Below the pieces are notes generated by a model. That model was given only the letters and a program-made list of their open reading frames with translations. It had not been told where the DNA came from and ran no database searches. This document shows positions 946-62,744 of a stretch of DNA of 64,000 nucleotides, in pieces. Origin of the DNA: Paraspadella gotoi (taxonomy: Eukaryota > Animalia > Chaetognatha); NCBI GenBank assembly GCA_051294375.1, contig CM119266.1:5969431-6033430 (forward strand), in the 5' to 3' direction. Position 1 is the stretch's first letter. Each line of letters opens with the position of its first letter. The translations under genes and the position numbers were made by a program.

Positions 946-950
946 TATAG

Positions 951-1200
951 CAACAGCCGAGTTGCCGGTGATGCCCATTGGGATGGGGCATCTCACTGTT
1001 GGCTTTTGGGGCTTCCGACCCTCAGTGATGCCTCCTGTCACTGGCGCGGTTACTCTAGGATGGTCTCGTTTTGCCAACACAGAGGGAAGTTGTTAGTTCT
1101 ATGGATGGAATGCAACGTTTAGAATGGTGCGTTCCCCCTCTGAGCCAATGGGATTGGCTGATCGAAGGTGGATGTGAGGCGGTGTGAATATACCACCACA
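951..1200 (-). mobile_element. About 250 bp structured dispersed repeat carrying a twister motif, copy 1
   Basis: Closely similar to 1949-2193 and 2421-2632. Contains several hairpins: GATGCCC..GGGCATC, GCCAAT-GGG-ATTGGC, GGCGGT..ACC(G/A)CC. Confidence 0.7.
997..1079 (-). ncRNA. Twister ribozyme motif, P5-type permutation (degenerate), copy 1
   Basis: Minus strand: UGUUGGC AAA ACGA G A CCA uccuagag UAA CCGC GC CAGUGA caggaggca UCACUG A GGG UCGG AAGC CCC AAAA GCCAACA. Predicted U^A cut between 1052 and 1051. Confidence 0.72.
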
Positions 1201-1629: not shown

Positions 1630-1948
1630 GTAGTGGTTTTAAAGATTAAGTTTTAAAGTTGGCTTTTAATTCAGGATAATAAATATGTGGGAAAAGGCAT
1701 TGATTTAATGTCTCAAAAAATTAAAAAATATCCAAATGAAACTACCGTTGTTGCAAATAAACCAATATTTACTCTTTCCCTCTAAATATCCAAAATACAC
1801 TTCTTCAAAACTTCCAAGAAGATCTAATCAAAAGATACAAAAAGTAATTAAATGTGCGTCAATATGCAAATGAGATTAAAGAATTCAGTCTGTAACATGC
1901 TAATACAAATCGAATGTTAATTATGCAATGAAATAGGTCACTTTATGG

Positions 1949-2193
1949 CAACAGCCGGGTTGCCTGTTATGCCCATTGAGATGGGGCATCTCAAAGTTGG
2001 CTTTGGGGCTTCCAACCCTCAGTGATGCCTCATGTCACTGGCGCAGTTAACCTAGAACGGTCTCGCTTTGCCAACACAGAGGGAAGTCGTTAGGACTGTG
2101 GATAGAACGCAATGCTTGGGATGGTGCGTTCCCCCTCTGAGCCAATGGGATTGGCTGATGATGGATGTGAGGCGGTGAGAATATACCGCCACA
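1949..2193 (-). mobile_element. Twister-bearing dispersed repeat, copy 2
   Basis: Collinear similarity to copy 1. Confidence 0.7.
1996..2075 (-). ncRNA. Twister ribozyme motif, P5-type, copy 2
   Basis: Minus strand: GUUGGC AAA GCGA G A CCG uucuaggu UAA CUGC GC CAGUGA..UCACUG A GGG UUGG AAGC CCC AAA GCCAAC. Predicted cut between 2049 and 2048. Confidence 0.75.
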
Positions 2194-2420
2194 GGAACCC
2201 CAGGTCAAGACATCACTCAGGTTCTCCAGGCCTGAGAGGTTTCTGACAAGACTGTTACCATAGAGGGAGAGAGAGAGAACGGGAGATGAGGGGGCATAGG
2301 CATTTGCCATAGAGTACCCCAGGGGCATAGGCGTTTGTTGTAGAGTACCTGAAGTTGGCAGGGCATAGGTGTTTGTTGTAGCGTACCCTGAGAAGGTAGT
2401 AGTGCTCACCACTTATGGAA

Positions 2421-2632
2421 ATAGCCGAGTTGCCTGTGATGCTCATTTGGATGGGGCATCTCACATTTGGCTTTGGGGGCTTCTGACCCTCAGTGACGAC
2501 TCCTGTCACTGGCGCGGTTACCCTAGGACGGTCTCGTTTTGCCAACACAGGGAAGTCGTAAGGACTGTGGGATGGTGCCTTCCCCCTCTGAGCCAATGGG
2601 ATTGGCTGAACGATGATGGATGTGGGGCGGTA
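2421..2632 (-). mobile_element. Twister-bearing dispersed repeat, copy 3 (internal deletion)
   Basis: Collinear similarity to copies 1 and 2; lacks the GAACGCAATGCTT segment. Confidence 0.7.
2466..2546 (-). ncRNA. Twister ribozyme motif, P5-type, copy 3
   Basis: Minus strand: UUGGC AAA ACGA G A CCG uccuaggg UAA CCGC GC CAGUGAC aggaguc GUCACUG A GGG UCAG AAGC CCC CAAA GCCAA. Predicted cut between 2520 and 2519. Confidence 0.7.
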
Positions 2633-2738
2633 TTGAAGATATACTATATTATATTCTTAATGGCTGGAGTAAGTTTCTATATTTAGATAATAAAGCACCC
2701 TCCAACCTCCCGCTACCCACGTTACTCCCTCCCTCCAG

Positions 2739-33441: not shown

Positions 33442-33473
<32 letters not shown>

Positions 33474-36199: not shown

Positions 36200-36407
36200 A
36201 CATTTCAGGTGCAGCCTCTCAATGCATTGGTGTCTGCCACCGAAGACAGCTCTGATAGCGACATCGTCCCTCGTTGGACGAATGCCTTTCAATCGAAGAC
36301 GAGGAGGACACCTGGCGGGAGGAAGCGACGTCGATCTTCTTGAAGTCGATTTTTGTCGATTCGACGAAGAAGTCGAAGTTTGATTCGGATCCAAGTCGTT
36401 GATGCAT
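36200..36407 (-). CDS. CCDC102-like gene, probable last coding exon (frame uncertain)
   Basis: TCCAG acceptor at 36408-36412 and a GC-rich island. Reading frame depends on donor choice and on a possible 1-nt error. Confidence 0.45.
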
Positions 36408-36766
36408 CTGGATTTAAAGATAGACAGATTTAAAGATAAAAAAAAATAGGTAAGTTAAGGTGATGATAATGGATAAAAAGTGAAAAGATTTAAAGATAGA
36501 CAGAAAAAATAGGAAGGGAAAAGTGAGTATTCTGGAAAGAAAGATAGAAAGATTTAAAGACAGAAAAAATAGGTAAGTAAAAGTGATTATTCTGGAAAGA
36601 GATGTGGAGAGATTTAAAGATAGACCGAGAGAAAGAAAAGGTCAGTGATGCATCAGGATATAAAGATAGAAAAACAGAAAGATAAAAAGTAAGTTAAAGT
36701 GAAGATTCTTGAAAGAAAGAAAGATAAAAAAGATTTCAAATAAAACAGAAATAATTAGGGTATTAC

Positions 36767-36897
36767 CTGCACCTGCCCTGATTGGCTCTCGCCCTTGCTG
36801 TCACGTGATCGAGCTGCACCTTCATCGCCGACACCTGATCTTCCAAATCTTCGTTGCTTCGCTGAAGACGACGACATTTGTTGTCCTGAGCGTCGGC
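36767..36897 (-). CDS. CCDC102: CCDC102-like coiled-coil exon
   Basis: ADAQDNKCRRLQRSNEDLEDQVSAMKVQLDHVTAR resembles the recalled CCDC102A segment ..ARKLQRSLDEQ..ENLQVQLEHLQSR. The 3' boundary is uncertain. Confidence 0.75.
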
Positions 36898-36992
36898 CTG
36901 GTTGCCAAGCAACGTTTTAGACTTGTTACATTGGAAATACAATTTACGATTAAGTCGACTCAACACTAAATCTAAATTCGTTCATCTCATCC

Positions 36993-37175
36993 TGTGCACT
37001 CTCAGTTGGAACCCGGTGGGTAATTGAGTAAAGCCGTGAGCTCATGATTAGTAGGTACTGAGATCGATACGCGCTGCATAAGGATGGCCGTCAACCACCT
37101 TGGGAGAATGATAAACTCTCAAGCATTGTGCCAAGCGCAGCACCCGTTCCACCGCTGGCAAGGGTTGTCAAAGAA
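36993..37175 (+). mobile_element. Possible tRNA-derived SINE-like insertion in a CCDC102-like intron
   Basis: GC-richer island with tRNA-like segments (GGTGGGTAATTGAGTAAAGC; GCTCATGA; AGGTACTGAGATCGATAC, resembling the initiator-Met T-loop GATCGAAAC). Confidence 0.3.
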
Positions 37176-38959
37176 GAAATCTTCATCCATAATTCTTTAA
37201 ACTTAAGACGTGATTGGCTCACCGGTCACTTAAAACTCGATTATGATTGGTTCTCACCTCATCTTGAACGTGAGATTTGAGAATCGAAGAATTAAAGAAG
37301 GAAATGGATGACGTTCAAGATGAGGTGAGAACCAATCATAATCGAGTTTTAAAGTGACCGGTGAGCCAATCACGTCTTAAGTTTAAAGAATTATGGATGA
37401 AGATTTCTTCTTTGACAACCCTTGCCAGCGGTGAACGGGTGCTGCGCTTGCACAATGCTTGAGAGTTTATTCATTCTCCAAGGTGGTTGACGGCATCCTT
37501 ATGCAGCGCGTATCGATCTCAGTACCTACTTTAATCATGAGCTCACGGCTTTACTCAATTACCCACCGGGTTCCAAAACTGAGAGTGCACAGGATGAGAT
37601 GAACGAATTTAGATTTAGTGTTGAGTCGAACTTAATCGTAATTGTATTTCCAATGTAACAAGTCTAAAAACGTTGCTTGGCAACCAGGCCGACGCTCAAG
37701 GACAACAATGTCGTCGTCTTCAGCGAGCAACGAAGATTTGGAAGATCAGGTGTCGGCGATGAAGGTGCAGCTCGATCACGTGACAGCAAGGGCGAGAGCC
37801 AATCAGGGCAGGGTGCAGGTAATACCCTAATTATTTCTGTTTTATTTGAATCTTTTTTATCTTTCTTTCTTTCAAGAATCTTCACTTTAACTTACTTTTT
37901 ATCTTTCTGTTTTTCTATCTTTATATCCTGATGCATCACTGACTTCTTCTCTTTCTCTCGGTCTATCTTTAAATCTCTCCACATCTCTTTCCAGGAATAA
38001 ATCACTTTTACTTACCTATTTTTTCTGTCTTTAAATCTTTCTATCTTTCTTTCCAGAATACTCACTTTTCCCTTCCTATTTTTTCTGTCTATCTTTAATC
38101 TTTCACTTTTTATCCATTATCATCACCTTAACTTACCTATTTTTTTTTATCTTTAAATCTGTCTATTCTTTAAATCCAGATGCATCAACGACTTGGATCC
38201 GAATCAAAACTTCGACTTCTTCGTCGAATCGACAAAAATCGAACTTCGAAGAAGATCGACGGTCGCTTCACCCCCGCCAGGTGTCCTCCTCGTCTTCGAT
38301 TGAAAGGCATTCGTCCAAACGAGAGGGACATGTCGCTATCAGAGCTGTCTTCGGTGGCAGACACCAATGCATTGAGAGGCTGCAGTCTGAAAGTGTTTAA
38401 AGGGAGTAAGTTAGGAAGGGAAGGGAGGGGGAGGATTTGGAAGGAGGAAGAGGGGAGGGGGGTGGGGAAAGATAGAGGAAGAGAGGGAGAAGGGGAAGGG
38501 GGCGGGTGAGGAGAGGGGAGGTGGTGGAAATAAGGAGAAGGGGAAGGGGAAGAGTGCGAGATTGGAAGGAGAGGAAGAGGGCGGAGTGACCAGGTCGGCT
38601 GGGCCTGGTCCACTCCGATACTCAAGAAAATAAATCGGCATTCCGCCTTTCGGCTTTTCCTTCTCTTTGTGTTGCTTGAGCCTCCCGTCTCTTTCGCCAT
38701 CGGAAAGGATGTTCCCGCTAGAAACCGCCCGTGGAGGTAGAGACGTACTTCAAACATGTGTCCTCGTCGTCGTCGTATTCGTCGTCGTCGTTGTCGTCGT
38801 CTCCTTTTTGCTTTATTTACCGTAACAAAATAAATCTGAAAATGATGCGTCGTTCCAAATAACTGATGGAGCAAATATTGTTTGACATTTTCCACATATG
38901 GAATACAAATAGAAAAATACTATCGGTAGCGTATTTCAATATTTCTCTCTCTCTGCTCT

Positions 38960-38999
<40 letters not shown>

Positions 39000-41549
39000 C
39001 TCTCTCTCTCTCTTCTCATCTCTCTCTCTCTCTCTCTCTTCCTTCAGGCCTTATCGACATCTCGCCGAACGTTTGTTCGGAACACATCGTCGTCATTGGT
39101 CGTCTCGTCGTCGTCGTCGTCTCCCAACGAATCTCCTCGTGACGTTCGAGCAAAAAGTCGCCAACATGGAGAGAGAGGAGTTTTTCAAGTTCAGTGACTG
39201 ACTGATTGATTTATTGATTGGTAAAAGTTTGAAAAATTGAAGTTCGAGTCAGTGACTTATTTATTAATGAATTAATTTTTTTTTGACAGGTCAATATTTG
39301 ACTATTTTGAAAGTTCAATGTAGCGTTATAACAAATTGAATGATTGATTGTTTAATTTGATTGATCTTATTGATCAATTGATATATTATTGGTTTAATTG
39401 ATATAAATGGTTGGTTTTATTGATTGGTTTGTTGATAGATTGATTGATTGAATTGACACATTTAGAACGCATCGACCGATTTGGTGGCCATAGAAGCGAA
39501 AGGAAAATTTCCGTCGACCGCGTCGATCAAACGACGACGTCAATCGCGACCACGCCCGCAGACAGACACACCCACAGCGACGCCCACAAACGACGATGAC
39601 GACGACGCCAACAAGGACGACCACAAAAGACATCCACAAAGACATCAACAGCGAAGGCCACAGCGTAACCCACGAAGATATGTCTCTCTAAGAACTCTGA
39701 CTACAGTATGGCCGCTTCTTCCCGACGGAAGTGAAACAAGCCTCGGACGCGGCCGCTGCTGCTGCGGACTCCGGGGACGCCGCCACTGCCGCCAGAAGAC
39801 GAGGGGAACGCCGCAGCGGACGCAGGGGACGCCGCAGCGAACGCCAATGCTGCTTCTACCGACGGCGCCTTCGACACTTCTATTTATTTTGAGCGAAGAT
39901 TTGAAAGTTTTTGCCGATTTTCTTAAAAAATATTGATTTTTTTTAAGTATGTTTTTAAAAAATTAATACAAGTATTAATTAAAATATTGAATATTGCTAT
40001 GTATTGTAGATAAATAGGAAAAACGGTTTAAAGAAATGATTATAAATTTTACTATTCAAAAATCTAAAATTTTTGTATTCTCTTTTTAAGTATTTAAAAT
40101 GAATATGGAAGAAAGAACCAAAATTAGAATCACAAATTCAACTAATAAAGTATAATTTATAAGTTAATTTCGCATCAATCTTTATTTGTTATCACACGGA
40201 CTACAACAAAATTAATTAAAAAAAAAAGCGACGTCATTTGTGGCAAAAATACAAGTAGCGGATATGATTTCTTCATCCATGTCTAAAGTAATGACTAAAT
40301 ACTGGGAGGCCCAGTCTTTTTGGAACGAAATTAAAAAGTTCCTTTTTACGGGTAAATAAAAGAATAATTAAAATTGGTACCCATGTAAAAAATTGTCATG
40401 ACAATACAATATATTTAAAACCATGATCTTCTGTGTCCAGAGTAGGCGGCGCATACTTTTGCAACCTCGCACAAGTTGGGAAAGCTGCCATTCTTACTAC
40501 TATTACCGCTATCAGAAAGTAGACAATTCCCATAAGGGATGCGTGGGATATTCTGCTTCTCTCTTCCTACATTTTCATTATGTATGTTCCCCTGTTATAA
40601 TTGCAGTCAAAAAAAACTGCTAAAACATCATAAAATTTTTGTAAAGAAACTCGTCGTGTGAAATCGCGGCTTGTGAGCTTGTTGATTAAAGTAAATACAT
40701 TTTCCATGTGCCAAGTTAGAGGGTGAACAAGTTTGAGCAAAACATTGCCATATCTGCCCACACTAATTTAGTTATCTTCAGCCACTTATACGTAAATTTA
40801 TAAAGAAAAAAGAAAAATTAATTTTTGCAAAAGGACCAAACAATACTTTAAAAAGATGTGATTTTCTTTTAAATTTCATAAACATTGAGGTTTTTTTATT
40901 TTGTGTCTCAAACAGAAATCATAAGGAAGAGGAAAGACTTGGTGATTTCCACCCGGAGGAGGAATATCAGAGACGTCAAAATCTCTAAATCTTCATAGTC
41001 CTCAAGAAACATTATTTTACTTATTCTTGTTTCATTTAACTCTCTCTGTTATGAAACTTCATGTTCTACAACAGCAACACCGATGGGTTTTTTTCACCAA
41101 ACTTCTGCAGCAACTTCTTTAACATCAACGGGACTTGTGAACAACAATCTCCGCTCAGCATCACGACGGACAAAAATGCGAAGAAACTTAATGTAGAAAA
41201 AATTGTTACAATTTTGCTCTTGAATACAATTCGCTCTCGATTTTGATTCACCATTTTCGCGACCGAGTTGACAATTTTGTTTCAATTAATTTAATGTCTG
41301 ACTCGATGCTAAAACAACCAAATTTGAAAAAAAAAGTTAATTAGAAAATTATAACGACTGGAGAAATTAGTAAAGTTTTCTTTCTCGATAAAATCATTTG
41401 TCTTCAGCGGGTTTTTTTTTGTTTTTTCCTTTTTCTCAAATTTTTTTTAGTTTTCAGACGTCGATTTTCGTTTTATTTCAAAATCGTCTGTGGACGTCAT
41501 TTGCTCAGTTTTTTTAAAAAAAGTAAGTTTCATAAAAAAAGACGACGAT

Positions 41550-41581
<32 letters not shown>

Positions 41582-42472
41582 TAAAGACTAAGATGACGAC
41601 GGAAATATCGCAGTGAGATTAAAAAAAAGAAAACGTGCAATAATAAAAAATAATATAAAAAAATTAATAAAACAACTGAAATAACTATTACTGATTACAA
41701 CGACGACGATAACTACGACGACAGCGACGACGATCGTAACGACGATAACGACGACGACGACGACGATGATGTTTTGCGAATTACTTCGGACGTTTTTACA
41801 GATATTTTCTCCCCATAAAATGGAGGACCGACAGATAAGATTAATCGATCGCTCGGGTTTTTTCGCGCGAGATATTAGCGTCGGGCATTTATTTTTCTCA
41901 TTAATAAATTGATTAATTACGAGTTTAGCTAAAATGATATAAAAGAAAAGAGTGAGAGATAGTGTGAGGGGGTCTTTGCTACAAAAAAAGTACTATACAT
42001 TTTTTTTTTCATAATCAATGGACTCGTTATATTAAAAAAATGTTGTGAAAAAGTTAACTTTTGAGAATCACGAAAAAGTCACGACTTTGTATCTAGTGAT
42101 AGTATTGTGAAAAGCAGACGTGCGTTGAAAATCATCAAAAGAACAAACAGAACAAAAGAATGTTTTTTTTTTGTCATAAATTTATTTTCGAATTCAAAAA
42201 TATTTTTTTGATTTTCTCTTCTTTTTGATGACAATAAATCATTCGAGTTTTCTCGGATGTAAAGTTAAACAAGTTATGGTGGAGGATAATAATAAGAGAT
42301 GACACGACGACGACAACAACGACGACAGCGACGACGACAACAACGACGACAGCGACGACGACAATGACGACGACAAGACCCGGAAAAAAGTTCTAAAATA
42401 TTTAGAAACCAATTTATCTCTTGACTTCTTCTCGCCCGAAGTAAACGAATTTTTGTTCGACAATCTCTCTCT

Positions 42473-42527
<55 letters not shown>

Positions 42528-45244
42528 CTCTCCTTTTCCTCTCTCTCTTTCTCTCTCTCTCTTCTCGCGAAACTTACTCAACTCGCTAACTCATTTTCTA
42601 AGCGTAAATCTATCTCGAAAATTCCAGGATTAACCCACATCAACCTCTCTCTCATCTCTCTCTCCTCTCTCGTCTCTCTCTCATCCTCTCTCCTCTATCT
42701 CTCTCTTCTCTTCTACTCTCCTCTCTCTCTCTCAACCCGGAAGCGATAGCAACCTTCGCTCTTCGCTCGTTGTCTCTCTTAAATTTTCTCTTTACCGCCT
42801 TCGATTTGCTCATTCACTCATTCACCGAAATTCACGGACTCGCGTTTTCGCCTTCACAACTCACCACGTTTGCGCCTTCACCACCCCCTTTCGGCACTAT
42901 TCACCCCTCGCTCATCCACCCCTTTTCCACTTAATCACCCCTCGCTTCATCACCCCCTTCGCACTAATCCACCCCTCGGCTCATCACTCCCTTTCGCCAC
43001 TAATCACCCCTCGCCTCATCAACTCCCTCGCTTCATCACTCCCTCGCTCATCAGTCCTCAGCAAATCACACCTTAAAGGCAAAATCACTCCAACGGGGTA
43101 TAGTATCACCGACAGCAAAATTTCGTTGAAATATTAGTTTTCACAACGAAATGTGTTGACAAAATCAGAAAAACAAACTCAGAAGACTCCAATATATTTA
43201 ATTACCTAAAAAAACTTCATCTTTAAGGGATTTCAGTTTTTAGGTTGCCGCCGAGAGTCGTCGGAACGATTCCTTTAAGACACTTTGGGGGTCGGTCGGT
43301 CGCCTGCGTCGGTCGGGTCGGTCGGGAGTCGGCTTCGGTCGGTCGCTAAGTCGGTTCGTCGGTCGGTCTGTCGTCGGCTGAGTCGTGTCGGTCGGTCGGT
43401 GAGTCGGGTCGGTCGCGTACTGAGTCGGTCCGGTTCGGTCGGTGAGTCCGGTCTGGTCGGTCGGTGGGATCGGTCGTGTCGGTCGCTGCAGTTCGGTCGG
43501 GCTCGGTCACTGAGTCCGGTCGGTCGGTGAGTCGGTCGTCGGTCGGTGAGTCGGTACGGTCGGTCGGTGAGTCGGTCGGTCGGTTTGCTGAGTCGGCCGG
43601 TCGGTTCACTGAGTCTTGGTCGGTCGGCGGTGTGAGTCGGTCGGTCCGGTCGGTGAGTCGTCGGTCGGTCGGTGAGTCGGTCGGTCAGGTCGATGAGTTC
43701 GGTCGGTCGGTCGGCTGAGTCGGTCGGTCGGCGTCGTCGTTGAGATCGGTCGGTCGGTCACTGAGTCGGTCGGTCGGTCGGTGAGTCGGTCGCGGTCGGT
43801 CGCTGAGTCGGTCGGTCGGTCGCTGAGTCGGTCGGTGTCGTCGGTCACTGAGTCGGTCGGCTCGGTCGCTGAGTCGGATTCGGTTCGGTCGGCGGTCGGT
43901 TCGGTGGAGTCGGTCCGGTCGGTCGCTGAGTCGGTTCGGTCGGTCGCTGAGTCGGTCGGTCGGTCACTGAGTGGCTCGGTTCGGATCGCTGAGTCGGTCG
44001 GTCGGTCGCTGAGATCGGTCAGGTCGGTCGTCTGGTCGGTCCGGCACCTGCTCGGTCGAGGTCGCTTGAGCTCGGTCGGTTTCCGGCCATCGGTCACTGA
44101 GTCGCGTTCGGATCGCGTCGCTGTAGTTCGGTTCGGTCGTGTCGGCTCGCTCGGTCGGTGAGTCGGTCGGTCGGTCGCTGAGTCGGTCGGTCGTCGCTGA
44201 GTCGAGTCGGTACGGCGTCACTGAGTCGCTCGGTCGGTCGTGAGTTTGAGTCGGTCGGTCGCGTCGCTGAGCTCGGTCGGTCGGTCGCTGAGTCGGTCGT
44301 CCGGATTCGGCATCGGTCGGTGTGAGTCGGTCGGTCGGTCGTGAGTTTCGGGACATGTCGGTCGGTCACTGATCGGTTCGGTCGGTCGCCTGACAAGATC
44401 GGTCGGCAATCGGATCAGCCTAGAGTCAGCGCTCGGTCGGTCACTGAGTCGGTCGGTCGGTCGCTGAAGTCGGTCGGCGGTCGCTGACGGTCGGATCTTC
44501 GGATTCGTGTCGCTGGCAGTCGGTCGGGTCGGGGTGCCATCGGTCCTCGCGTCGCTCGTGCAGCGGTCGGTTGGGCGCTGGAGTCGGCTCGGGTCGGTCA
44601 CTGAGTCGGTCCATCGGCCTCGGATCGGTGAGAATCGGTCGGTCGCGTCGGTGAGTCGGTCCGGTCGGGTCGCTGAGTCGGTCCGGTCAGGTCACTGAGC
44701 GCCTTCGGTCGGTCGGTGAGTCGGTCGGTCGGTCGCTGAGTCGGCTCGGTTCGGTCGCTGAGTCGGTCGGTCGGTCTCACTGAGTCGGCGTCGGTCGGTC
44801 ACTGAGTCGGTCGGCGGTCGGTGAGCTCGGTCGGGTCGGTCCGGTGAGGTCGGTCGGTCGGTCGCTGAGTCGGTCGGTCGGTCACCTGAGGTCGCGTCGG
44901 TCGGTCGGTGAGTGGCTCGGTCTGGTCCGCTGAGTCGGTCGGTCGGTCACTGAGTCGGTCGGTCGGTCGGTGAGTCGGTCGGTCGGTGTTGAGTGCGGTT
45001 CGGTCGGTCGGTGAGTCGGTTTTCGGTCCGGGTTCGCTGAGTCGGCGGTCGGTCACTGAGATCGGTCGGTCGGTCTGTTGGTTCGGTGGGTCGAACGGCT
45101 AGGTTCATCTGTTCGCCGTCCTGTATGTCCTACTTGATTATTAAAATAGTGAATCCGATAATAATGATTTAATAATCGATTATTATATATTTCATACTAT
45201 TGTTCGTCACGTGATTCCANNNNNNNNNNNNNNNNNNNNNNNNN

Positions 45245-45279: not shown

Positions 45280-45587
45280 CTGTAGAAAAAAAAACAAAAA
45301 ACAAAGATAAATCACAAAAAGATGGAAAAAAACTATTATGCCAAAAACGTTGTAATTGTTAAAAATCTTTTAAAATAGTCCTCGTCGTTACTCATAAATC
45401 TCCTCAGATACCCGACTTATTTTCCATTTCACCTAAGATCTCCAATTATCCCCTCAAAATCCCTTGATCCCCTCACATGTACGCATGCGCGAGTTTGCTC
45501 TTTCTCTCGCTGAGAATCATCTCAAGCAGATCCCCCCTCAAATGATCCCCTCTATGATCCCCTCAAAATCCCTAATGATCCCCTCAC

Positions 45588-45715
45588 CTGTGCGCATGAG
45601 CAAGCTCGCTCGTTCTCTCGCTGAGAATCTTCTTGAGTTTGAGATGCGATGATCGGGATTCCATCAACTCTTTCGCCCGCGATCGAAGATCGGACTCCAG
45701 CGCGGATCGATCGCT
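45588..45715 (-). CDS. CCDC102: CCDC102-like exon
   Basis: Reads SDRSALESDLRSRAKELMESRSSHLKLKKILSERTSELAHAH(R). AG/GT flanked, phase 0/2. Confidence 0.8.
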
Positions 45716-45788
45716 CTGTTCAAAAATATAAAACTTTAATCTCATTTGCATATTGAAGCTTGTATTTTTTTTTTTTTTTTAATTTTAC

Positions 45789-45953
45789 CAGAGCCGAGGC
45801 GGCGTCGGCGGTCTTCTTCGCTTCCAATTGACTCTGCAATTCCTCGATTTGTTGCTTCAATCTTTTGTTTTCTCTCTCCATCACGAGTCTGTGAGTTTCC
45901 AAACGCTCGCAGCGACTCCACTCTTCAGCGTTTTCCTTCTCCAACAACTCGAG
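45789..45953 (-). CDS. CCDC102: CCDC102-like exon
   Basis: LELLEKENAEEWSRCERLETHRLVMERENKRLKQQIEEL matches the recalled family motif ENA.EW..RERLETEKL.LERENKKL. Confidence 0.85.
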
Positions 45954-46271
45954 CTTGAGAGGGACAAAAGAACATCGGAAGAGAGTTGGGGTTTGTTCAA
46001 TATATATTATAGTCTATCGCTAAATAAATTTAAAAAGAAATAGCCAAATATATAAAGGTATAAATAAGCAGTTTAATAGATAAATGAGAAACAGATAAGT
46101 AAATAAATATATAAAAAAGAAAAAAGCTGATAAATAAACAAACAAATACATCAAATGAATAAGTACAAACCATTAGGTAAAATATTGAATAGTTAAATGA
46201 ACAAGTAACTAATGAATAAATAAATAATAAATAAATTAAATAATAGATTAATCCCCCCCTTCCACACCGAC

Positions 46272-46445
46272 CTGTTTCCTCATTTCCGCCATCTTCCCTT
46301 CCACCTCCTCTCGTGCCTCCATCTCCTCCTCCAGATTGAGCGAGGTTCGCCCCAACGCTTCGCTGTGCTCCAACTTCAACTCCCCCAACTCCTCGTCGAC
46401 GGTCGCCTTCGCCGCCGCCAACTCGGAGGCGCGGAGGCGAGAGGC
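46272..46445 (-). CDS. CCDC102: CCDC102-like exon
   Basis: Reads ASRLRASELAAAKATVDEELGELKLEHSEALGRTSLNLEEEMEAREEVEGKMAEMRKQ; 174 nt, phase 0/0. Confidence 0.8.
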
Positions 46446-46848
46446 CTGGATGTATTAACATGTGTAAACGATGATGATTATTAACAGTATGTACTGTACG
46501 AATCTATAATTACAGTATATTGACGGATTTATTGATATCTAAATTAATTAGTAAACTTCAGAAAAAAGTTTTTGTTTTTAAATTTTTTGTAAATGGAAAT
46601 AAAATTTAATTTCTTTAATTTTTAAGTTCTAATAAAGAAACGATGAATTGAAAAAAACTTTTTAATCATTTTTCACGGCCTCAAAATTCTTTCCTGTTTT
46701 GATTGATTAATAAATATATTTTTTCTTTAATTTGTTTTATTTTCTATTACTACATTTTACTATTGCATACGTTTATTCCTTGAATTATCACTCACTCGAT
46801 TCACTCTTTACTCCTCCCCCCTCTCTCACCCCCCCCCCCCCTCGCTAG

Positions 46849-46939
46849 ACTCAAAAAGGCCAGCCGCGCCCTCTCACTCGAACGCGAACGATCCGCCCGC
46901 TTCCTCCACAGACTCGACGCTGTCGCCTCCGAACTCCAA
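46849..46939 (+). CDS. CCDC102: CCDC102-like exon placed in inverted orientation by the assembly
   Basis: Reads (R)LKKASRALSLERERSARFLHRLDAVASELQ. Its phase 2 start matches the donor at 49119, and its phase 0 end matches the exon at 46445. Confidence 0.65.
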
Positions 46940-49119
46940 GTTGAGGCTGGACGCGGGTCTTCGTCAATCATTACTTCTCTATTGTTTAATGATTTAATGT
47001 TATTTCGATAATAATCGCATTTTAAGGCTGTTTTAAAGACGAATATAAATCGGAAATTACAAATTAAAGTACTATCCTTGAGTAAATCTATGAAATTTAA
47101 AAATGCCTTTTTTTTAACAATTTTTAAATTCAAAAGTCAAAGAAAAATTATTATTCAAACTTTTGAGGCCGTGAAAAATGATTAAAAAGTTTTTTTCAAT
47201 TTATCCTTTCTTTATTAGAACTTAAAAATTAAAGAAATTAAATTTGAATTCATTTACAAAAAATTTTAAAAACAAAAAACTTTTTCTGAAAGTTTACTAA
47301 TTAATTTAGATATCATAAATCCGTCATATATACTGTAATTATAATTCGTACAGTACATACTGTTAATAATCATCATGCGTTACCAACATGTTAATACTCC
47401 AGGCCTCTCGCCTCCGCGCCTCCGAGTTGGCGGCGGCGAAGGCGACCGTCGACGAGGAGTTGGGGGAGTTGAAGTTGGAGGCACAGCGAAGCGTTGGGGC
47501 GAACCTCGCTCAATCTGGAGGAGGAGATGGAGGCCGAGAGGAGGTGGAAGGGAAGATGGCGGAAATGAGAAACAGGTCGGTGTGGAAGGGGGGATTAATC
47601 TATTATTTAATTATTTATTATTTATTTATTCATTAGTTACTTGTTCATTTAACTATTCAATATTTTACCTAATGGTTTGTACTTATTTCATTTGATGTAT
47701 TTGTTTGTTTATTTATCAGCTTTTTTCTTTTTATTATTTATTTACTTATCTGTTTTCTCATTTATCTATTAAACTGCTTATTTATACCTTTATATATCTT
47801 GGCTATTTCTTTTTAAATTTATTTAGCGATAGACTATAATATATATTGAACAAACCCCAACTTCTCTTCCGATGTTCTTTTGTCCCTCTCAAGCTCGAGT
47901 TGTTGGAGAAGGAAAACGCTGAGAGTGGAGTCGCTGGCGAGCGTTTGGAAAACTCACAGACTCCGTGATGGAGGAGAAGAAAACAAAAGATTGAAGCAAC
48001 AAATCGAGGAATTGCAGAGTCAATTGGAAGCGAAGAGAAGACCGCCGACGCCGCCTCGGCTCTGGTAAAATTAAAAAAAAAAAAAAATACAAGCTTCAAT
48101 ATGCAAATGAGATTAAAGTTTTATATTTTTGAACAGAGCGATCGATCCGCGGCTGGAGTCCGATCTTCGATCTCGGACAAAAGAGTTGATGGAATCCCGA
48201 TCATCGCATCTCAAACTCAAGAAGATTCTCAGCGAGAGAAACGAGCGAGCTAGCTCATGCGCACAGGTGAGGGGATCATTAGGGATTTTGAGGGGATCAT
48301 AGAGGGGATCATTTGAGGGGGGGATCTGCTTAAGATGATTCTCAGCGAGAGAAAGAGCAAACTCGCGCATGCGTACATGTGAAGGGAATCAAGGGATTTT
48401 GAGGGATAATTGGAGATCTTTAGGTGAAATGGAAAATAAGTCGGGTATCTGAGGAGATTTATGAGTACGACGAGGACTATTTTAAAGATTTTTAACAATT
48501 ACAACGTTTTTGGCATAATAGTTTTTTTTCCATGCTCTTTTGTGATTATCTTTGTTTTTTGTTTTTTTTTTCTACAGGAGAATCGAATCCTACGAAACAG
48601 GAGATAAAGAAACTGAGATTTGGAATCGAAGAATTAAAGAAGGAATTGGNNNNNNNNNNNNNNNNNNNNNNNNNTTTTTTTTTTCTTTTATAAAACAGAC
48701 ACGAAATGTACGAATATAATTAAACTAATAAAGGGATTAAATAATAAGCTGGGCGACCCCTCAAGGGTCATTGAAGTTAATTAAACGAATTGATCAAAGT
48801 GAAAAAATTTTTTCAAGAAAATGTCAAAAAGTACAGTACAGTAATTAAAAATTTTACTTTCAGAATGGAGGTGCAGTGTAGTTGAAACTTTTTCTTTTTT
48901 TTTCTTTTTTTATTTCGACGAAAATTGATACGAAATTGGTACAACCACGTGATCTTCCTTTCGATGCTGCATCGTACTTCAATAGAGAAAGTAAAATTCC
49001 AAATCAAGAAACAAATTAATTTTCCCCTTAAAATTTAAGACGGAAATTTGTAATATTTGAAGATACAATATAATGTATTTTAAGTAAAAAAAAACTAATG
49101 TCACAAATAAATTTCTAAC

Positions 49120-51991: not shown

Positions 51992-52945
51992 ATGACCCGC
52001 CGACGTTTCAGCCATCGTTTGGGGGCTTCTCTTTCAAGTGCTGTTTCGTTGGCTGCTGCTAAGCGTCTGCAGCAACATCTTCCGCGATCTGCTCCACTGT
52101 CGACGCCCGTCGCTTACGTGCTGCTCTTTAAGCAGGCGAGACTGTGACCATCTCCCACTCGTGCGCATTCGCCTGGCGTCACTGGACTGTAACTGGTCAA
52201 CGTCGATGGTCGGCTTTTATTCATTTTCGCCTCTCATCATGAACATCAATATTATCTTATGGCGCGCCGCCGGCGCGTCATCGCCACTCGGTCGCCTTCT
52301 CCGCCATCACGTTGCTCTGGCATTCTCTTCGCATCCGCTGGTCCAACCGCATTGCGTCGACCGCTGGTGGATGTAAATCGACTTGTGCGGGCGTCGTTGC
52401 GGCCACGATCGGCCTAGCTGCTGCTGACGCATCCCTTCATTCTCTTCCGCCCTGCCGGTCTCAGCGCCGACCTTGGTCTTATTTCTTTGGCCTGGCATCA
52501 ACGATTGGATGCCAATGATGAACCTCCAAATTTTTTTAACGGCGCCGTCGCTGAAGAACATTGGTCGGCATTTTCTCGTCCGTTGCGTTGGCTTTTGTGG
52601 CGGCGCATCGCCGCCGTCTGCTTGCGGCGTCGCCGGCGGCGTTTCGGCATTCTCTAGCGCGCGCTTTGAGCGGCGTTGATGCGAATGGGCGTTTGGTGCG
52701 GTTCGATCTCTATACCATCTACCGACTCTCTCAACAGGCTCGGCTGGCAACGAATTGGAAGGCCTTCGACGAGGGTCTCGCCGGGATGGTTGGGAAATTT
52801 GATTTCACGCGGGTTGCCCATCCCGGTGACGACGTTGTTGGCGGATGGCGTTTGTTTAGAGAGCGCGCGACCACGTTGGAGACGGTGGGCGTTGGTCGTT
52901 CGTCTTCAACTACGATCGTCGTCGTTACGATTTATGAAGGGAAGA
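51992..52945 (+). pseudogene. Frameshifted copy of the SLC35G-like CDS (likely read error rather than a true pseudogene)
   Basis: Collinear with 56335-57245, with many indels. Confidence 0.5.
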
Positions 52946-53691
52946 GGGAAAGAATCTCTCTCTCTCTCTCTCGTACTCGGTTTTCGGTAAAAAAGGCTTT
53001 GACATAACTCGTCCTCAAGAATTTTTTTATGGATTCTCCCTGTTGTTCAAGAGAAGCAATATAATTCCAACGCCCAAAATCATTTAAGTTTATTTTTTTA
53101 ATTGCTCTGCTCAAAGCCTTAAGCCTTTTTCCGATTTAACTTATCTCAAATTAGAAACCACTTTTTTTATAATTTTACTTCTTTAGTTCTCTAGTTAAAG
53201 GCCTTTTTTCATCGATTAAAGGTTGACTGTTGACTCTTCTTCACCGTAATCCATTTGACAAAACTTGTTTTTTTTTATTTCTCGCTCATAAAAAATTGCA
53301 AATAAGGTTTCTAGACATTGTTTTATTTCTTTCCTTTCGTTGCGTGGGAAGCACTAAAGGAAAAGTTTTTTTTTATTTTTGTTTCTGACAACGAATGTAT
53401 TTAATATGAAAAACGGACATGTTTCGGCTATATTATTAGCCTTCATCAGCTCTCTCTCTCTTTCTCTTTCTCTCTCTTTCTCTCTCTAACCATTACTTTT
53501 TTAATTAGTAATAAAGTAATAAACTTAATTATAACCGAGGTGACAATAAATCTGATCGCTTATTTTGTAACTAATGTGTATTACGGTCAGTCTCTTTAGT
53601 GGTATAAGTCACTTATCGGTCGGTCTGTCGGTCGTTCGTCGGTCGGTATGTCTTGTCCCACTTACGTTAAAAATGCATGTAATTTGCCTAT

Positions 53692-56334: not shown

Positions 56335-57318
56335 ATGACCCGCGACGTTTCCAGCCTCGTTTGGGGCTTCTTCTTTCAGTGCTGTTTCGTGCTGCTGCTA
56401 AGCGTCTGCAGCAACATCTTCCGCGATTCTGCTCCACTGTCGACGCCCGTCGCTTACGTGCTGCTCTTTACAGGCGAGACTGTGACCACTCTGCCACTCG
56501 TGCCATTCGCCTGGCGTCACTGGACTGTAACTGGTCCACGTCGATGGTCGGCTTTTATCATTTTCGCTCTCATCATGAACATCAATATTATCTTATGGCG
56601 CGCCGCCGCCGCCGTCATGCCACTCGGCGCCTTCTCCGCCATCACGTGCTCTGGCATTCTCTTCGCTCCGCTGGTCACAACCGCATTGCGTCGACGCTGC
56701 GTGGATGTAATCGACTTGTGCGGCGTCGTTGCGGCCACGATCGGCCTGCTGCTGCTGACGCATCCCTCATTTCTCTTCGCCCTGCCGGTCTCAGCGCCGA
56801 CTTGGTCTTATTTCTTTGCCTGCATCAACGGATTGGATGCAATGATGACTCCATTTTTTTACGGCGCCGTCGCTGAAGAACATTGGTCCAATTTTCTCGT
56901 CCTTCGTTGGCTTTGTGGCGGCGCCATCGCCGCCGTCTGCTTCGGCGTCGCCGGCGGCGTTTCGGCATTCTCTACGGCGCCTTTGACGGCGTTGATCGAC
57001 ATGGCGTTGGTCGGTTCGATCTCTACCATCTACCGACTCTCTCAACAGGTCGGCTGCAACGAATTGGAAGCCTTCGACGAGGGTCTCGCCGGGATGTTGG
57101 GAAATTTGATTCACGCGGGTTCCATCCCGGTGACGACGTTGTTGGCGATGGCGTTTTTTAGAGAGACGCCGACCACGTTGGAGACGGTGGGCGTGGTCGT
57201 CGTCTTCACTACGATCGTCGTCGTTACGATTATGAAGGGAAGAGGAAAGAAAGAGGAGGAGGAGGAGGAGGAGGAGGAGGAGGAGCAACTTTATGAAGTA
57301 GAAAAAATAGGAAAATGA
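56335..57318 (+). CDS. SLC35G-like drug/metabolite (EamA) transporter, intronless CDS of about 327 aa
   Basis: About 10 hydrophobic segments. MPLGAFSAI...F.PL...L....D.....GLLLLTHPSFLF resembles the recalled SLC35G signature. Poly-Glu tail; ATG at 56335. Confidence 0.75.
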   Translation: MTRDVSSLVWGFFFQCCFVLLLSVCSNIFRDSAPLSTPVAYVLLFTGETVTTLPLVPFAWRHWTVTGPRRWSAFIIFALIMNINIILWRAAAAVMPLGAFSAITCSGILFAPLVTTALRRRCVDVIDLCGVVAATIGLLLLTHPSFLFALPVSAPTWSYFFACINGLDAMMTPFFYGAVAEEHWSNFLVLRWLCGGAIAAVCFGVAGGVSAFSTAPLTALIDMALVGSISTIYRLSQQVGCNELEAFDEGLAGMLGNLIHAGSIPVTTLLAMAFFRETPTTLETVGVVVVFTTIVVVTIMKGRGKKEEEEEEEEEEEQLYEVEKIGK

Positions 57319-59614: not shown

Positions 59615-61378
59615 CTGCCTCCCGCTACGTGAAAATTGATTTTAAAATTAAAACTTATCAGAACCAGAAGATTCCCGATATTGTGAATCTCTCTTGGGAT
59701 GAGATTTGATAAAATGAAATGAAAAAATGATAAAAAATATTCTTTGGTTTAATCATCACATTTTCTCGGTTGGAAAAAACAAAATCTAACTTTACTCATT
59801 AAAAAAAAGTAATTTCTCGGATTATTTTTTTTTTTTCGATGCAGAATCTGGAGCATTGTTTTTCCTCTCTCTCCATGTGGCCATGATCGATTTGATCATG
59901 GGGGCCCCGAATGGACCATGGGGCCAAAAAGGGGAAACATGGGGCCAAGAGGGATCCATAAGCAATTGGAGAATAGGGATCAGCGGGATTTGGATCAAAG
60001 GGCATTCGGCATTTGGTCGTAGCAATCGGTTTAAAATTTAGCTAAAAGCCACCAAAAAAAAATCTTCAGATAAAAACTTGCTTTTTTTTTTCCTCGTAAA
60101 AATAAATCCAAGATTCTGTTTCCCTTTTGTTTTCTTTGAAAATTGTTTTCCGCCAATAAAATCGACGTCTTTTATCCTTAAAATCCTTCCTTCCGAAAGT
60201 TAGGGCTGACATCAAAAGGCGGAAGGGTTAGAAATTAGGGATGATGTTGAGATAGAAAAAAACCAAAAATTTCTGTTTCGTTAAAAATGATATTTTTAAT
60301 TTAAGTAACTTTTTAATCTTTTAATATAAAAATTTTAAAAACCACTTACTTTTTTTTATTTATTCATATTTTGCTCCAAAATGATTAGGGAAACGCCATT
60401 ATTTTATGGTTATTGTTATTGTTATTTTTTTGGATTTATTAAATTATAGCATCAAAAGTTGTAACGTCTTATTTTTTTAATTATGGTATAACTACCGACA
60501 CTAAAATAATTGTAAAATCCTCATCTCCCCAAAGCCTCTTACTGAAATAAAAATGCGCAACTTCCTAATTTGATAAATTAGAACCAGTCAATGTTGCAAG
60601 GAAGGGTTAACTTGGTTGCTTTCAATAAGAACCAGGAATTCGATTATCAGCGAATCCGCCGATTGATTAGGTTTGATGAAAGGATTCAATTCTTATCCTA
60701 AAATTCCTATTTTTTATCTTTTACTGTTTGTGCGTTAAAAGAAATTGTTTTTATCAGTTTTTTTTAATGAAACAACAAAGTTAAATTGTAAGTTCTATGA
60801 TGTTAAATAAATTTTCCTAATAGAGCTCGACCCGCAATGTCAGATCGCTGCCAGCCCCACTGTCAGCGTTGCGTTGCTTTTAAAAATGTCGAAACAAATC
60901 TTTTAACTTCGTCTTTTAAATTCTATCTTCAATCAAAATGAACAATCTAACAATTTAATGGCACTAATACGATCCGAGAGGGGGAGTTCCAAACGTCAAA
61001 ATATTTTCGTGGGTGAAACTTTAAAAAACTTAAAAAACCGAACCTCGATTTCGTTTGATCTTTCGATCTTTTGTTTTGATCGAAAAAAGTTTCGTCGGAC
61101 GTCATTCGAGTTTTTCGATTCTTGGCGCAGATTGATTGAAAAGTAGTTTGCTTACAGAAATTCTGGCTATTATAGCGTAATATTTGTGATATTTCTTCAG
61201 GAGTCAGGGACAGAGAGTATTTTTTAGTTTAACTTTCTGCATAAAATTTTTAATTTCAAAAGTCCCACCAAATTGAAGTTGGTCAAAAACCAGAACCTTT
61301 CCTGGAAATTATGTGGTTTCAATTATGTGAATGATCTTAATTAGTTTAGTTAAAAGTTATGGTAGACTAAAATCCACT

Positions 61379-61538
61379 AACCGTTCATCAGTGGCCATTG
61401 GTGCCGGAGGCAAGTCAAAGGTCCGGGGTTCTAGCCTGGTGGCCGCCTAGCAGTTAAAAGGGACGGGGCGCTTAACCCGCCTGTAACTCGGTGTTACAGC
61501 CTGATCCGAAGCTGAGGGACTGCTTATATTGAACGGTT
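61379..61538 (+). mobile_element. Short SINE-like element: tRNA-like Pol III head followed by a twister motif
   Basis: A-box-like TGGCCATTGG (61392-61401) and B-box-like GGTTCTAGCC (61427-61436) inside a T-arm-like stem. Ends AACCGTTCA and TGAACGGTT are complementary. Confidence 0.55.
61449..61524 (+). ncRNA. Twister ribozyme motif, P5-type (degenerate)
   Basis: AGCAGUU AAA AGG G A CGG ggcgcu UAA CCC GC CUGUAAC ucggu GUUACAG CCUGA UCCG AAGC UGAGG GACUGCU. Predicted cut between 61473 and 61474. Confidence 0.68.
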
Positions 61539-62744
61539 CTGTCAATAACACATAACACTAATTACTGTCTCTTCAAAGTGTTAATTTTAGACCGAATGTC
61601 GTCGCGTACAGAATAAACATAAAATAAGTGATATATGAAATGGAAAACAAAAATCATAAAAAAGAAAGTAATTGTCCGCAGAAGGACATAGATCCCGTTA
61701 TGCACAACTTATTTGTTCCAACTTTTAAGTTATTTTTTGGCCATAAACTCTTAAGGGCTTCGCTGATGAGGTCACTTTTTTATGGAAAACAAATCCAAAC
61801 TCATTCCGATTTTGCCGGCTTAATTGCTTATTACTTCTATGATACATATGAGACAATAAAAACTTCAGTGTGCTGAAAGCTAAATATCACGGCTTTCTAA
61901 TTATTACATATGCGTCAATGTTAGTTCTTTATTTGGTGGAAAATTACTCCCATCAAATCAAAAGCAAGCAACCTTTTTTTTAGGGATGTAAACACAAGTT
62001 CCGTATCTCTGTAAACAAAATGAAAAAACCGCCAAAAAAATTTGTAAAAACCACGAAAAAAAGAAAGAAAACGAAACTAAAAAGATTTAAAGTGAAAAGT
62101 TTTTATGTTCGTCGCAAAAACAAAGATAAAAACTAAATAAGGGGAAAGACTGTGGGATGCGTTATTGCAAAAATAGGGAGGAGGAGGAGGAGGAGGAGGA
62201 GGAAGAGGAGGAGGAGACGAATGGGCGATAATCCAAACATGACTGAAAAGGGATCCTTTGTTCTGGAGTTGAAGTCGGAATTTAGAGAGAAGAATAATTT
62301 GAAAAAGGTGAAATGAGTAAACGAGTTCGAAGATGAAAAGAGGGAAGAGGAGAGAGTGAAACAAGAAAGTGAAAGAGTGAAATAATAAGTGAAAAAAGTG
62401 AAAAGTGAAAAGTGAAAAGTGAGAGAGTGAAACTAGAAAGTGAAAAACAGGTGAAAAAAGTTACAAAAAAACAAATAATTTTTTTTAATAAGATTTTTTT
62501 GTCTTAACTAGGTAATTAAAATCTAAACTATCTCTCTCTCTTTATGGGTAAAAATATTATTTCTTAAAAGATATCATTTTAATGGTACAAGCCAGAGCTT
62601 CGTTTGATTGATTTTTTTAATAAATTTTTCCCGGGACATATCATCATCATCATCATCATCATAATCATAGCTAGTTAGCTATTGAGCACCTATCGTTAAA
62701 AAAGGTATTTTTCGGCATAAAAAAAGAAAAGAAATTCTTGTACT

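What the first reader, a model, noticed from the sequence alone, without database searches (positions are those of the whole stretch)
61379..61538. Second, unrelated twister motif fused behind a tRNA-like Pol III head (SINE plus twister)
Seen: a 160-bp GC island with A/B-box-like motifs followed directly by a P5-type twister layout. P5 (AGCAGUU/GACUGCU) and P3 (CUGUAAC/GUUACAG) each form 7-bp stems. L4 UCCG-AAGC pairs with GA-CGG, a third T1 variant (CCG/CGG). Stem sequences share nothing with the 1-2.6 kb family, only the core. There is one mismatch in P4, one in P2, and a minimal P1. The 9-nt ends are complementary. Established: tRNA-derived SINEs with hammerheads are known in schistosomes. 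Inference: a Pol III SINE carrying a twister, and at least two independent twister-bearing mobile families within 64 kb, which would imply a ribozyme-rich genome.
Basis: partly seen in the sequence, partly recalled or inferred. Interest (0 to 1): 0.85.

Follow-up and report, generated by a model that had tools for sequence, protein, structure and literature searches.

The report
tRNA-headed LTR carrying a twister ribozyme
This is one copy of a very abundant 218-base mobile element in an animal genome that joins a tRNA-like piece to a predicted self-cutting 'twister' RNA; its fixed ends and 4-base target duplication make it more likely the terminal repeat of a miniature LTR retrotransposon than a SINE, and its ribozyme would likely cut well only when two copies pair.

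Summary
The twister layout is real. Every named stem and both pseudoknots are in the sequence, and the descriptor hit 1 of 20,000 element shuffles. The element is larger than reported: 61358-61575, TA...CA, flanked by AAGT twice. One contig shows the empty site with a single copy of that target. It is high-copy (7,191 contigs in one run; same ends in 4 of 4 runs). Most copies have a full tRNA cloverleaf and a perfect P4; this copy is damaged. The SINE reading fits poorly: the element starts 33 bases before the tRNA, has no tail, has a short target duplication, and its ends are not at the cleavage site. Best reading: solo LTR of a Helenus-like TRIM that works like a plant LTR retrozyme, but with a twister. 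P1 is a palindrome here (GGCGCU) and in the unrelated 1-2.6 kb family, which suggests dimer-dependent cleavage as in newt hammerheads. Not shown: primer-binding site, polypurine tract, a paired second LTR, expression, cleavage. Rfam gives no twister hit, and a competing helix dominates the predicted monomer fold.

The parts
61354..61357 (.). Left target-site duplication AAGT (5-bp AAAGT from 61353 fits equally if the element ended one base earlier)
   Evidence: Sequence; empty-site joint 61352->61575 with 5 letters fitting either side, 1 contig, depth 34.6 in X1
61358..61575 (+). Whole element, TA...CA; likely a solo LTR; most copies carry 16 more bases after 61417
   Evidence: Loose ends at 61357/61358 and 61575/61576 in 4 of 4 runs; 7,191, 1,827, 235 and 638 contigs laid
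61358..61390 (+). 33-base leader upstream of the tRNA-like part (U3-like, inferred)
   Evidence: Shared 5' end at 61358; tRNA stem starts at 61391
61379..61387 (+). Left arm of 9-bp subterminal inverted repeat; predicted RNA stem closing the tRNA+twister domain
   Evidence: Pair probability 0.93; 35 of 3,000 shuffles reach 9 bp
61391..61447 (+). tRNA-like unit: 7-bp acceptor stem, D arm, T arm with shifted loop; anticodon arm deleted in this copy but present in most copies
   Evidence: Stems 7 of 7 and 5 of 5; missing 16 bases in loose-end rows at 61416/61417 of all 4 runs; ARAGORN and Rfam negative on this copy
61399..61410 (+). Likely Pol III A box (degenerate)
   Evidence: Position within the cloverleaf; A-box consensus recalled, no call
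61427..61436 (+). Pol III B box-like motif with the GGTTC core
   Evidence: Sequence; GGTTC is the conserved B-box core of Helenus LTRs (PMC10886601)
61449..61524 (+). Predicted type-P5 twister ribozyme with P3
   Evidence: Descriptor and shuffles; helix table; majority letters of other copies give a 5-of-5 P4 and one more P3 pair; no Rfam hit
61467..61472 (+). P1 segment GGCGCU: one G.U pair capped by a palindromic tetraloop, or a 6-bp helix between two copies
   Evidence: 6 of 6 self-pairs, duplex -8.3 kcal/mol
61473..61474 (+). Predicted self-cleavage site U^A
   Evidence: Homology to twister L1 (PMC8501958 section 17); untested
61530..61538 (+). Right arm of the 9-bp inverted repeat
61539..61575 (+). 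3' segment ending in CA, no poly(A) or simple-repeat tail (U5-like, inferred); most variable part of the family
   Evidence: 7 of 37 sites vary at 3% or more against 5 of 76 in the twister, Fisher p 0.057
61576..61579 (.). Right target-site duplication AAGT
946..1200 (-). Comparison family, copy c1: P5 twister on the minus strand, TA...CA ends on the plus strand, inserted at one 4-mer of an 87-bp tandem array
   Evidence: flanks ATGT and ACAT, read as a decayed ACGT duplication (inferred)
1944..2193 (-). Comparison family, copy c2
   Evidence: Descriptor hit; no clean target duplication
2414..2645 (-). Comparison family, copy c3, with a fully self-complementary 8-nt P1 segment at 2521-2528; far end approximate

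Best explanation
The 218-base element is a high-copy repeat with fixed TA...CA ends and a 4-base target duplication, and it is likely the solo long terminal repeat of a non-coding miniature LTR retrotransposon whose repeat carries a tRNA-derived Pol III promoter and a predicted twister ribozyme. Shown: boundaries, high copy number, the duplication at this locus, tRNA cloverleaf in most copies, twister anatomy, palindromic P1. Inferred mechanism: Pol III starts near the tRNA in the 5' repeat and reads on (no T4 run inside the element). A lone twister has almost no P1 and a competing helix, so it would cut poorly. When a transcript holds two repeats, the two GGCGCU segments would pair into a 6-bp P1 and both would cut at 61473/61474. 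The unit between the cuts has no terminal redundancy and would be ligated into a circle, whose single twister is again weak, so the circle is stable. A Gypsy-type reverse transcriptase and integrase supplied in trans would copy the circle and insert it with a 4-bp staggered cut. Solo repeats like this one arise by LTR-LTR recombination or directly from the circular template.
For: Fixed ends in 4 of 4 runs from 3 studies. Exact AAGT duplication in the window plus an empty-site contig. A comparison-family copy also has TA...CA ends and an apparent 4-bp duplication. Flank consensus 4-mers lean to R-T-A-Y: 7 of 15 end rows match exactly, at low agreement 0.40-0.58; fixed-length palindromic targets mark integrase/transposase insertion and ATAT marks several Gypsy clades (PMC3276498 passages). 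Animal Helenus TRIMs have tRNA-like LTRs, 4-bp duplications and solo LTRs (PMC10886601), and at least two Helenus LTR consensus entries begin with TA. Plant LTR retrozymes put a ribozyme in each LTR, have 4-bp duplications and solo LTRs (PMC4918200 passages). Majority letters improve the twister: 61514 C in about 99% (P4 5 of 5), 61458 G in about 99% (extra P2 pair), 61488 A in 86% of X1 depth. T1 differs yet pairs across three sets: CCG/CGG here, CGG or UGG/CCG in the comparison family, CCC/GGG in Schistosoma. [quoted passage not shown]
Against: No primer-binding site, polypurine tract or paired second repeat was seen; only 1 contig in 1 of 4 runs joins a 3' end back to a 5' end, at single-locus depth. 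Rfam has no twister hit at E up to 10. In a nested-only model a rival helix 61464-67/61476-79 has probability 0.94 and the MFE is 11.6 kcal/mol below the twister scaffold; that model cannot score pseudoknots, and pairing in trans does not by itself remove the rival. G61508 of T1 is A in 13% of X1 depth while its partner changes in 3% (0.03% in X8), so a subfamily breaks T1. No compensatory pair was found within the family. Shown loose-end rows hold more 3' than 5' ends (169 against 48 in X1) and depth is higher over the 3' half, as 5' truncation would give. This copy's own target AAGT fits only R-N-N-Y. Only 1 of 3 comparison-family copies has a fully intact P1 palindrome or a readable duplication. 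In an ordinary hairpin P1 the outer pairs are expected anyway, so the palindrome adds only the central pairs as evidence.
Confidence: 0.55

Rival explanations
1. Same LTR-type element, but the twister is weak or dead cargo captured from another ribozyme-bearing repeat; the element moves as an ordinary Helenus-type TRIM.
For: Rival helix dominates the monomer fold; near-absent P1; a T1-breaking subfamily at 3-13%; no Rfam score; the family looks young (minor variants mostly C>T and G>A at 1-3%), so an intact motif need not reflect selection.
Against: Two unrelated families with the same kind of ends both carry a P5 twister with a palindromic P1; frequent variants avoid the catalytic letters and fall more in loops and tail (p 0.057).
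Confidence: 0.15
2. A non-autonomous cut-and-paste DNA transposon with imperfect ends and a 4-bp duplication, carrying tRNA and twister as passengers.
For: Fixed ends, short palindromic-leaning target and mostly solitary copies fit any DDE element; both families share a TAT(G/A)G end but in opposite orientation to their twisters.
Against: No terminal inverted repeat; the only inverted repeat is subterminal, asymmetric and 9 bp. RNA-level features would have no role.
Confidence: 0.13
3. One reading: a Pol III tRNA-SINE with a twister, copied by target-primed reverse transcription, perhaps from tandem arrays like the schistosome hammerhead SINEs.
For: tRNA head plus body; excess of 3' ends and 3' depth; one head-to-tail joint; precedent in Schistosoma (PMC6765202 passage).
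Against: 33-base leader outside an internal-promoter transcript; fixed tail-less 3' end; 4-bp duplication; ends do not coincide with the cut site, as they should if cleaved monomers were inserted; an internal cut would remove the promoter from the template. The 3' excess is confounded by this copy's 16-base deletion near the 5' end, by unitig overlap, and by seeing only 24 of 490 loose-end rows.
Confidence: 0.12
4. The twister layout is a chance pattern in a G+C-rich repeat.
For: No Rfam support; folding z only -1.22; descriptor written after seeing the element.
Against: 1 of 20,000 shuffles; majority letters improve two stems; the same descriptor finds an unrelated family with covarying T1; none of 64 loci matching only the core letters was similar to the element, and P4 reached at most 4 pairs in them.
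Confidence: 0.03

Closest known systems
Helenus / TRIMp3 (Kojima 2024, PMC10886601; read main-text parts 1-4 of 6, supplement part 1 of 11 and motif searches)
   Same: tRNA-like unit inside a short LTR with leader before it, GGTTC B-box core, 4-bp duplications in animals, solo LTRs, thousands of LTR copies possible, some LTRs starting TA.
   Different: No ribozyme is reported ('twister' 0 hits in the main text; the three supplement matches to six twister-L4-like octamers lie in internal parts). Helenus is defined by two LTRs, PBS and PPT, none seen here.
Plant LTR retrozymes (Cervera 2016, PMC4918200; passages)
   Same: Non-coding, ribozyme embedded in the LTR, 4-bp duplication, solo LTRs, proposed circular RNA intermediate and Gypsy helper.
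   Different: Type III hammerhead, plants, no tRNA-derived promoter in the passages seen; here twister, animal, tRNA head; circular RNA untested.
Metazoan non-LTR retrozymes with type I hammerheads (PMC7229834, PMC7761336; passages)
   Same: Weak helix capped by a palindromic tetraloop, cleavage as dimer, 170-400 nt units.
   Different: Hammerhead, tandem arrays, larger duplications, no LTR traits; this element is mostly dispersed with a 4-bp duplication.
Schistosome hammerhead SINEs (review passage PMC6765202)
   Same: Pol III promoter plus internal self-cleaving ribozyme.
   Different: Hammerhead, propagate from tandem repeats; here fixed TA...CA ends away from the cut site.
Twister variants at the 5' end of Perere-3 (RTE) LINEs (PMC8501958; abstract, sections 3 and 17)
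   Same: Twister linked to a retroelement, weak P1 tolerated.
   Different: Type-P1 ribozyme at the 5' terminus of a coding non-LTR element; here type-P5, internal, non-coding.
CryptonS (PMC3212892, PMC13565253; passages)
   Same: TATGG at a terminus.
   Different: CryptonS has TATGG at both termini, one being the target; here it is at one end only and the duplicated target is a different, variable 4-mer.

Membership tests
Twister ribozyme (type P5) | Conserved core letters: UAA at the cut site, catalytic G with following A, L4 U-NNN-AAGC | tested here: met
   no other letter at 1% or more at G61462, A61463, 61473-75 in X1
Twister ribozyme (type P5) | Pseudoknots T1 and T2 | tested here: met
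   3 of 3 and 2 of 2 pairs; T1 covaries across families; a 3-13% subfamily breaks one T1 pair
Twister ribozyme (type P5) | Stems P2 and P4 | tested here: met
   P4 4 of 5 here, 5 of 5 with the majority letter; P2 2 pairs here, 3 with a bulge in most copies
Twister ribozyme (type P5) | P1 stem of typically two or more pairs | tested here: inconclusive
   One G.U pair in cis, 6 pairs possible in trans; weak cleavage without P1 is reported
Twister ribozyme (type P5) | Scores against Rfam twister models | tested here: not met
   No hit at gathering or E up to 10
Twister ribozyme (type P5) | Site-specific self-cleavage | not testable with these tools
   Needs a bench assay; no raw RNA reads offered
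Helenus / TRIMp3 | tRNA-like sequence with A and B boxes inside the repeat | tested here: met
   Cloverleaf stems, anticodon arm in other copies, GGTTC core; A box degenerate
Helenus / TRIMp3 | 4-bp target duplication and LTR-type termini (animals) | tested here: met
   AAGT twice and empty site; shown directly at one locus only
Helenus / TRIMp3 | Two LTRs around an internal part with PBS and PPT | tested here: inconclusive
   Not in the window; flank consensus agreement about 0.4; one 3'-to-5' joint with unknown letters between; no genome held
LTR retrozyme | Self-cleaving ribozyme within the LTR | tested here: inconclusive
   Predicted twister, not hammerhead; activity untested
LTR retrozyme | Circular RNA between the two cut sites | not testable with these tools
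   Only contigs were available
tRNA-derived SINE | 5' end at the tRNA head | tested here: not met
   Shared 5' end 33 bases upstream of the acceptor stem
tRNA-derived SINE | A-rich or simple-repeat 3' tail and variable-length duplication | tested here: not met
   Fixed end at 61575/61576 in 4 of 4 runs, 4-bp duplication
CryptonS | TATGG at both termini | tested here: not met
   One end only
MITE | Terminal inverted repeats | tested here: not met
   Longest inverted match between the end regions is 9 bp and subterminal

The most novel reading that the evidence does not exclude
An animal LTR retrozyme of a new make: a Pol III-driven miniature LTR element whose repeats carry an obligate-dimer twister ribozyme, so that only two-repeat transcripts are cut and the resulting RNA circle is stable; the design arose at least twice in this genome, and the repeat may even spread as a single unit copied from the circle.
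Probability: 0.3. Interest if true: 0.85.

Novelty: new variant of a known kind. Interest (0 to 1): 0.7.

Why it matters
Twister ribozymes have few assigned biological roles; the one in the papers read is 5' processing of an RTE LINE (PMC8501958). LTR retrozymes are described from plants with hammerheads, and animal retrozymes as non-LTR (PMC7229834). A twister inside an animal LTR-type repeat with a tRNA promoter would join Helenus and retrozymes in one element and give type-P5 twisters (about 1% of twisters carry P5, PMC6154101 passage) a function. A palindromic P1 in two unrelated families makes a sharp, cheap prediction: cleavage should depend on a second copy. Nine literature searches listed no paper whose title or abstract opening describes a twister in an LTR/TRIM, a tRNA-SINE with a twister, or a dimeric natural twister; subscription papers, Repbase and Dfam were not searchable, so the family may already be catalogued without the ribozyme noted.

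Tried and rejected
Rfam, whole window and three sub-stretches: no twister or tRNA hit. ARAGORN: 0 genes. Whole genome not held. No second copy in the window by blastn. Gapped core patterns in metagenome and viral contigs gave 46 and 18 loci; none resembles the element and none forms the full scaffold by the P4 check. An exact 28-base pattern in prokaryote genomes gave 0. Expression: no RNA holder listed; X9 is only guessed to be RNA and shows the same heterogeneous flanks as the DNA runs, so it is not used. Summed contig depth (about 2.4 million against about 80 in the flanks) is not a copy number; only contig and flank counts are quoted. A scan for TATGG...CA units with 4-bp repeats gave 7 hits, about what chance would give by my rough estimate, so the 5 others outside the two families and one inside the tandem array were dropped. 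Homodimer co-folding cannot score a kissing P1 and was uninformative. CryptonS, MITE and Helentron-type readings were rejected (one-sided TATGG; no terminal inverted repeat; a duplication is present and I saw no 3' hairpin; Helentron traits recalled). c2 plus c3 as one two-LTR element: no matching duplication and no purine tract seen. Earlier scan findings: nothing by sequence or place, nothing for two word searches. tRNA isotype: body looks Val-like and the anticodon position Gly-like; this is recalled, no call.

Full report
What was checked. A type-P5 twister descriptor found 2 places in the 64 kb: this one and one copy of the 1-2.6 kb family. It gave 3 loose and 0 strict hits in 100 locally shuffled windows and 1 loose hit in 20,000 shuffles of the 160-mer. 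The descriptor was written with this element in view, so it overstates rarity. Rfam gave no twister or tRNA hit at any threshold tried and ARAGORN no tRNA. Folding energy is ordinary (z -1.22). The host is an animal by a rhodopsin-family GPCR-like frame at 2770-3105 (atlas look-alikes 0.93-0.95); the lineage was not determined.

It is a high-copy element with fixed ends. No genome is held and the window has no second copy, so I laid public contigs on the locus. Of 9 runs listed I laid 4, from 3 studies, and one of them again. They gave 7,191, 1,827, 235 and 638 contigs, nearly all on 61358-61575. Loose ends with unrelated A+T-rich flanks sit at 61357/61358 and 61575/61576 in all four runs. In X1 the shown rows hold 48 left and 169 right flanks; only 24 of 490 loose-end rows were shown. 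The element therefore runs TA...CA over 218 bases. It is flanked by AAGT on both sides, and one X1 contig (depth 34.6, about half the flank depth) joins the flanks with a single copy of the target. X1 may be the sample the window came from, so that contig is an empty allele, not independent support.

This copy is damaged; the family is better formed. Most copies carry 16 more bases after 61417, which supply the anticodon arm, so the family head is a full tRNA-like cloverleaf from 61391. At 61514 about 99% of depth in all four runs reads C, giving a 5-of-5 P4. At 61458 about 99% reads G, adding a P2 pair. At 61488 86% of X1 depth reads A, extending P3. No other letter reaches 1% at the catalytic G, the following A or UAA in X1. 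Against strict selection: G61508 of T1 is A in 3-13% of depth without a matching partner change, no compensatory pair appears within the family, and minor variants are mostly 1-3% transitions, as in a young family. Frequent variants are 5 of 76 sites in the twister and 7 of 37 in the tail (p 0.057).

Why not a SINE. The shared 5' end lies 33 bases upstream of the tRNA, outside what an internal Pol III promoter transcribes (established knowledge). The 3' end is fixed and has no tail. The duplication is 4 bp. If cleaved monomers were inserted by target priming, as described for schistosome hammerhead SINEs (PMC6765202 passage), ends would lie at the cut site; they do not. Flank consensus 4-mers match R-T-A-Y in 7 of 15 end rows, at low agreement. 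Fixed-length, palindromic targets mark LTR and TIR elements, and ATAT marks several Gypsy clades (PMC3276498 passages). One result favours the SINE view: more 3' than 5' ends and higher 3' depth. It is confounded by this copy's deletion near the 5' end and by unitig overlap, but it is not explained away.

The second family. Three copies at 946-1200, 1944-2193 and 2414-about 2645 carry a P5 twister on the minus strand and share no sequence with this element beyond chance. Copy c1 has TA...CA ends and sits in an 87-bp tandem array exactly at one 4-mer, with ATGT on the left and ACAT on the right; array units carry ACGT or ACAT there in 4 of 6 matches, so I read a decayed 4-bp duplication (inferred). 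Copies c2 and c3 show no clean duplication. T1 is CCG/CGG here, CGG or UGG against CCG there, and CCC/GGG in Schistosoma twisters (PMC8501958 table), which is covariation between families.

The P1 palindrome. Between T1 and the cut site this element has GGCGCU: one G.U pair with a palindromic tetraloop in cis, or a 6-bp helix between two molecules (-8.3 kcal/mol). The other family has an 8-nt segment there that is fully self-complementary in c3 and 6 of 8 in c1 and c2. Fully self-complementary 6-mers and 8-mers are 5.3% and 2.0% of all, though the outer pairs are expected in any hairpin. [quoted passage not shown] In a nested-only model the monomer prefers a rival helix that buries the catalytic G, T1, P2 and T2 (probability 0.94). 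This fits a monomer that is kept quiet, but it equally fits a poor ribozyme.

Most likely mechanism (0.55). A solo LTR of a Helenus-like TRIM that works like a plant LTR retrozyme. Shown: ends, abundance, duplication at this locus, tRNA-like unit, twister anatomy, palindrome, no T4 run inside the element. Inferred: Pol III transcription, dimer-dependent cleavage, circularisation, Gypsy-type copying and integration. Not seen: PBS, PPT or a paired repeat; one contig in one run joins a 3' end back to a 5' end with unknown letters between. Rivals: LTR-type with dead twister 0.15, DNA transposon with passengers 0.13, SINE 0.12, chance 0.03.

Comparison with what is known. It meets the Helenus traits that could be tested (tRNA inside the repeat, 4-bp duplication) but the two-LTR/PBS/PPT test is open, so it is filed as Helenus-like, not as a member (PMC10886601: main-text parts 1-4 of 6, supplement part 1 of 11 and motif searches; 'twister' occurs 0 times in its main text). 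It resembles plant LTR retrozymes in design (PMC4918200 passages) with a different ribozyme and kingdom. CryptonS shares TATGG but at both ends (passages). Also seen as passages: PMC7761336, PMC6154101, PMC10085705. The original twister paper, Repbase and Dfam were not seen. Nine searches listed no paper describing a twister in an LTR, a tRNA-SINE with a twister or a dimeric natural twister; most listed papers were seen only as listings. The unread ten parts of the Helenus supplement could hold a related LTR that my short motifs missed.

Verdict. Observation confirmed; interpretation partly supported; new variant of a known kind; interest 0.7. The boldest reading not excluded, an animal LTR retrozyme with an obligate-dimer twister evolved twice in one genome, has probability 0.3 and would deserve 0.85.

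Noticed in passing
window 946-2645: Three copies of a second P5-twister family with a TAT(G/A)G end, CCAAT/ATTGG motifs instead of a tRNA head, a palindromic P1 and, for c1, an apparent 4-bp duplication; may be a Pol II-driven element of the same design.
   Followed up: partly
window 2252-2264: An inverted copy of the family's TATGG end lies 60 bases after copy c2, between c2 and c3 (seen by eye).
   Followed up: no
window 61763-61770: Hammerhead-core-like CTGATGAG about 190 bases downstream of the element, without an obvious stem II or GAAA partner.
   Followed up: no
window 35962-36018: Weak Rfam match to the HDV-like drz-agam-1 ribozyme (25.1 bits, gathering 37, E 0.98); near a run of N.
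   Followed up: no
window 32600-42400 and 45400-48400: Long inverted duplications with 86-99% complementary arms, and a 20-21 bp CGAC-rich satellite at 28339-31332 with its reverse complement at about 43300-45000; could be real or fold-back assembly artefacts.
   Followed up: no
window 56335-57315 and about 52555-53007: Intronless EamA-like transporter frame (Pfam below cut-off; atlas 0.97) with a degraded second copy upstream.
   Followed up: partly
window 2770-3105: C-terminal part of a rhodopsin-family GPCR-like frame next to the twister family copies.
   Followed up: partly
window 61470-61481: An 11-base stretch around the cut site also occurs in both Ajax LTR consensus entries of the Helenus supplement, without the rest of a twister; probably chance.
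   Followed up: no
window 37195-37386: Near-perfect inverted repeat of about 40 bp per arm around 110 bases, at the centre of the large inversion (alignment); MITE-like.
   Followed up: no
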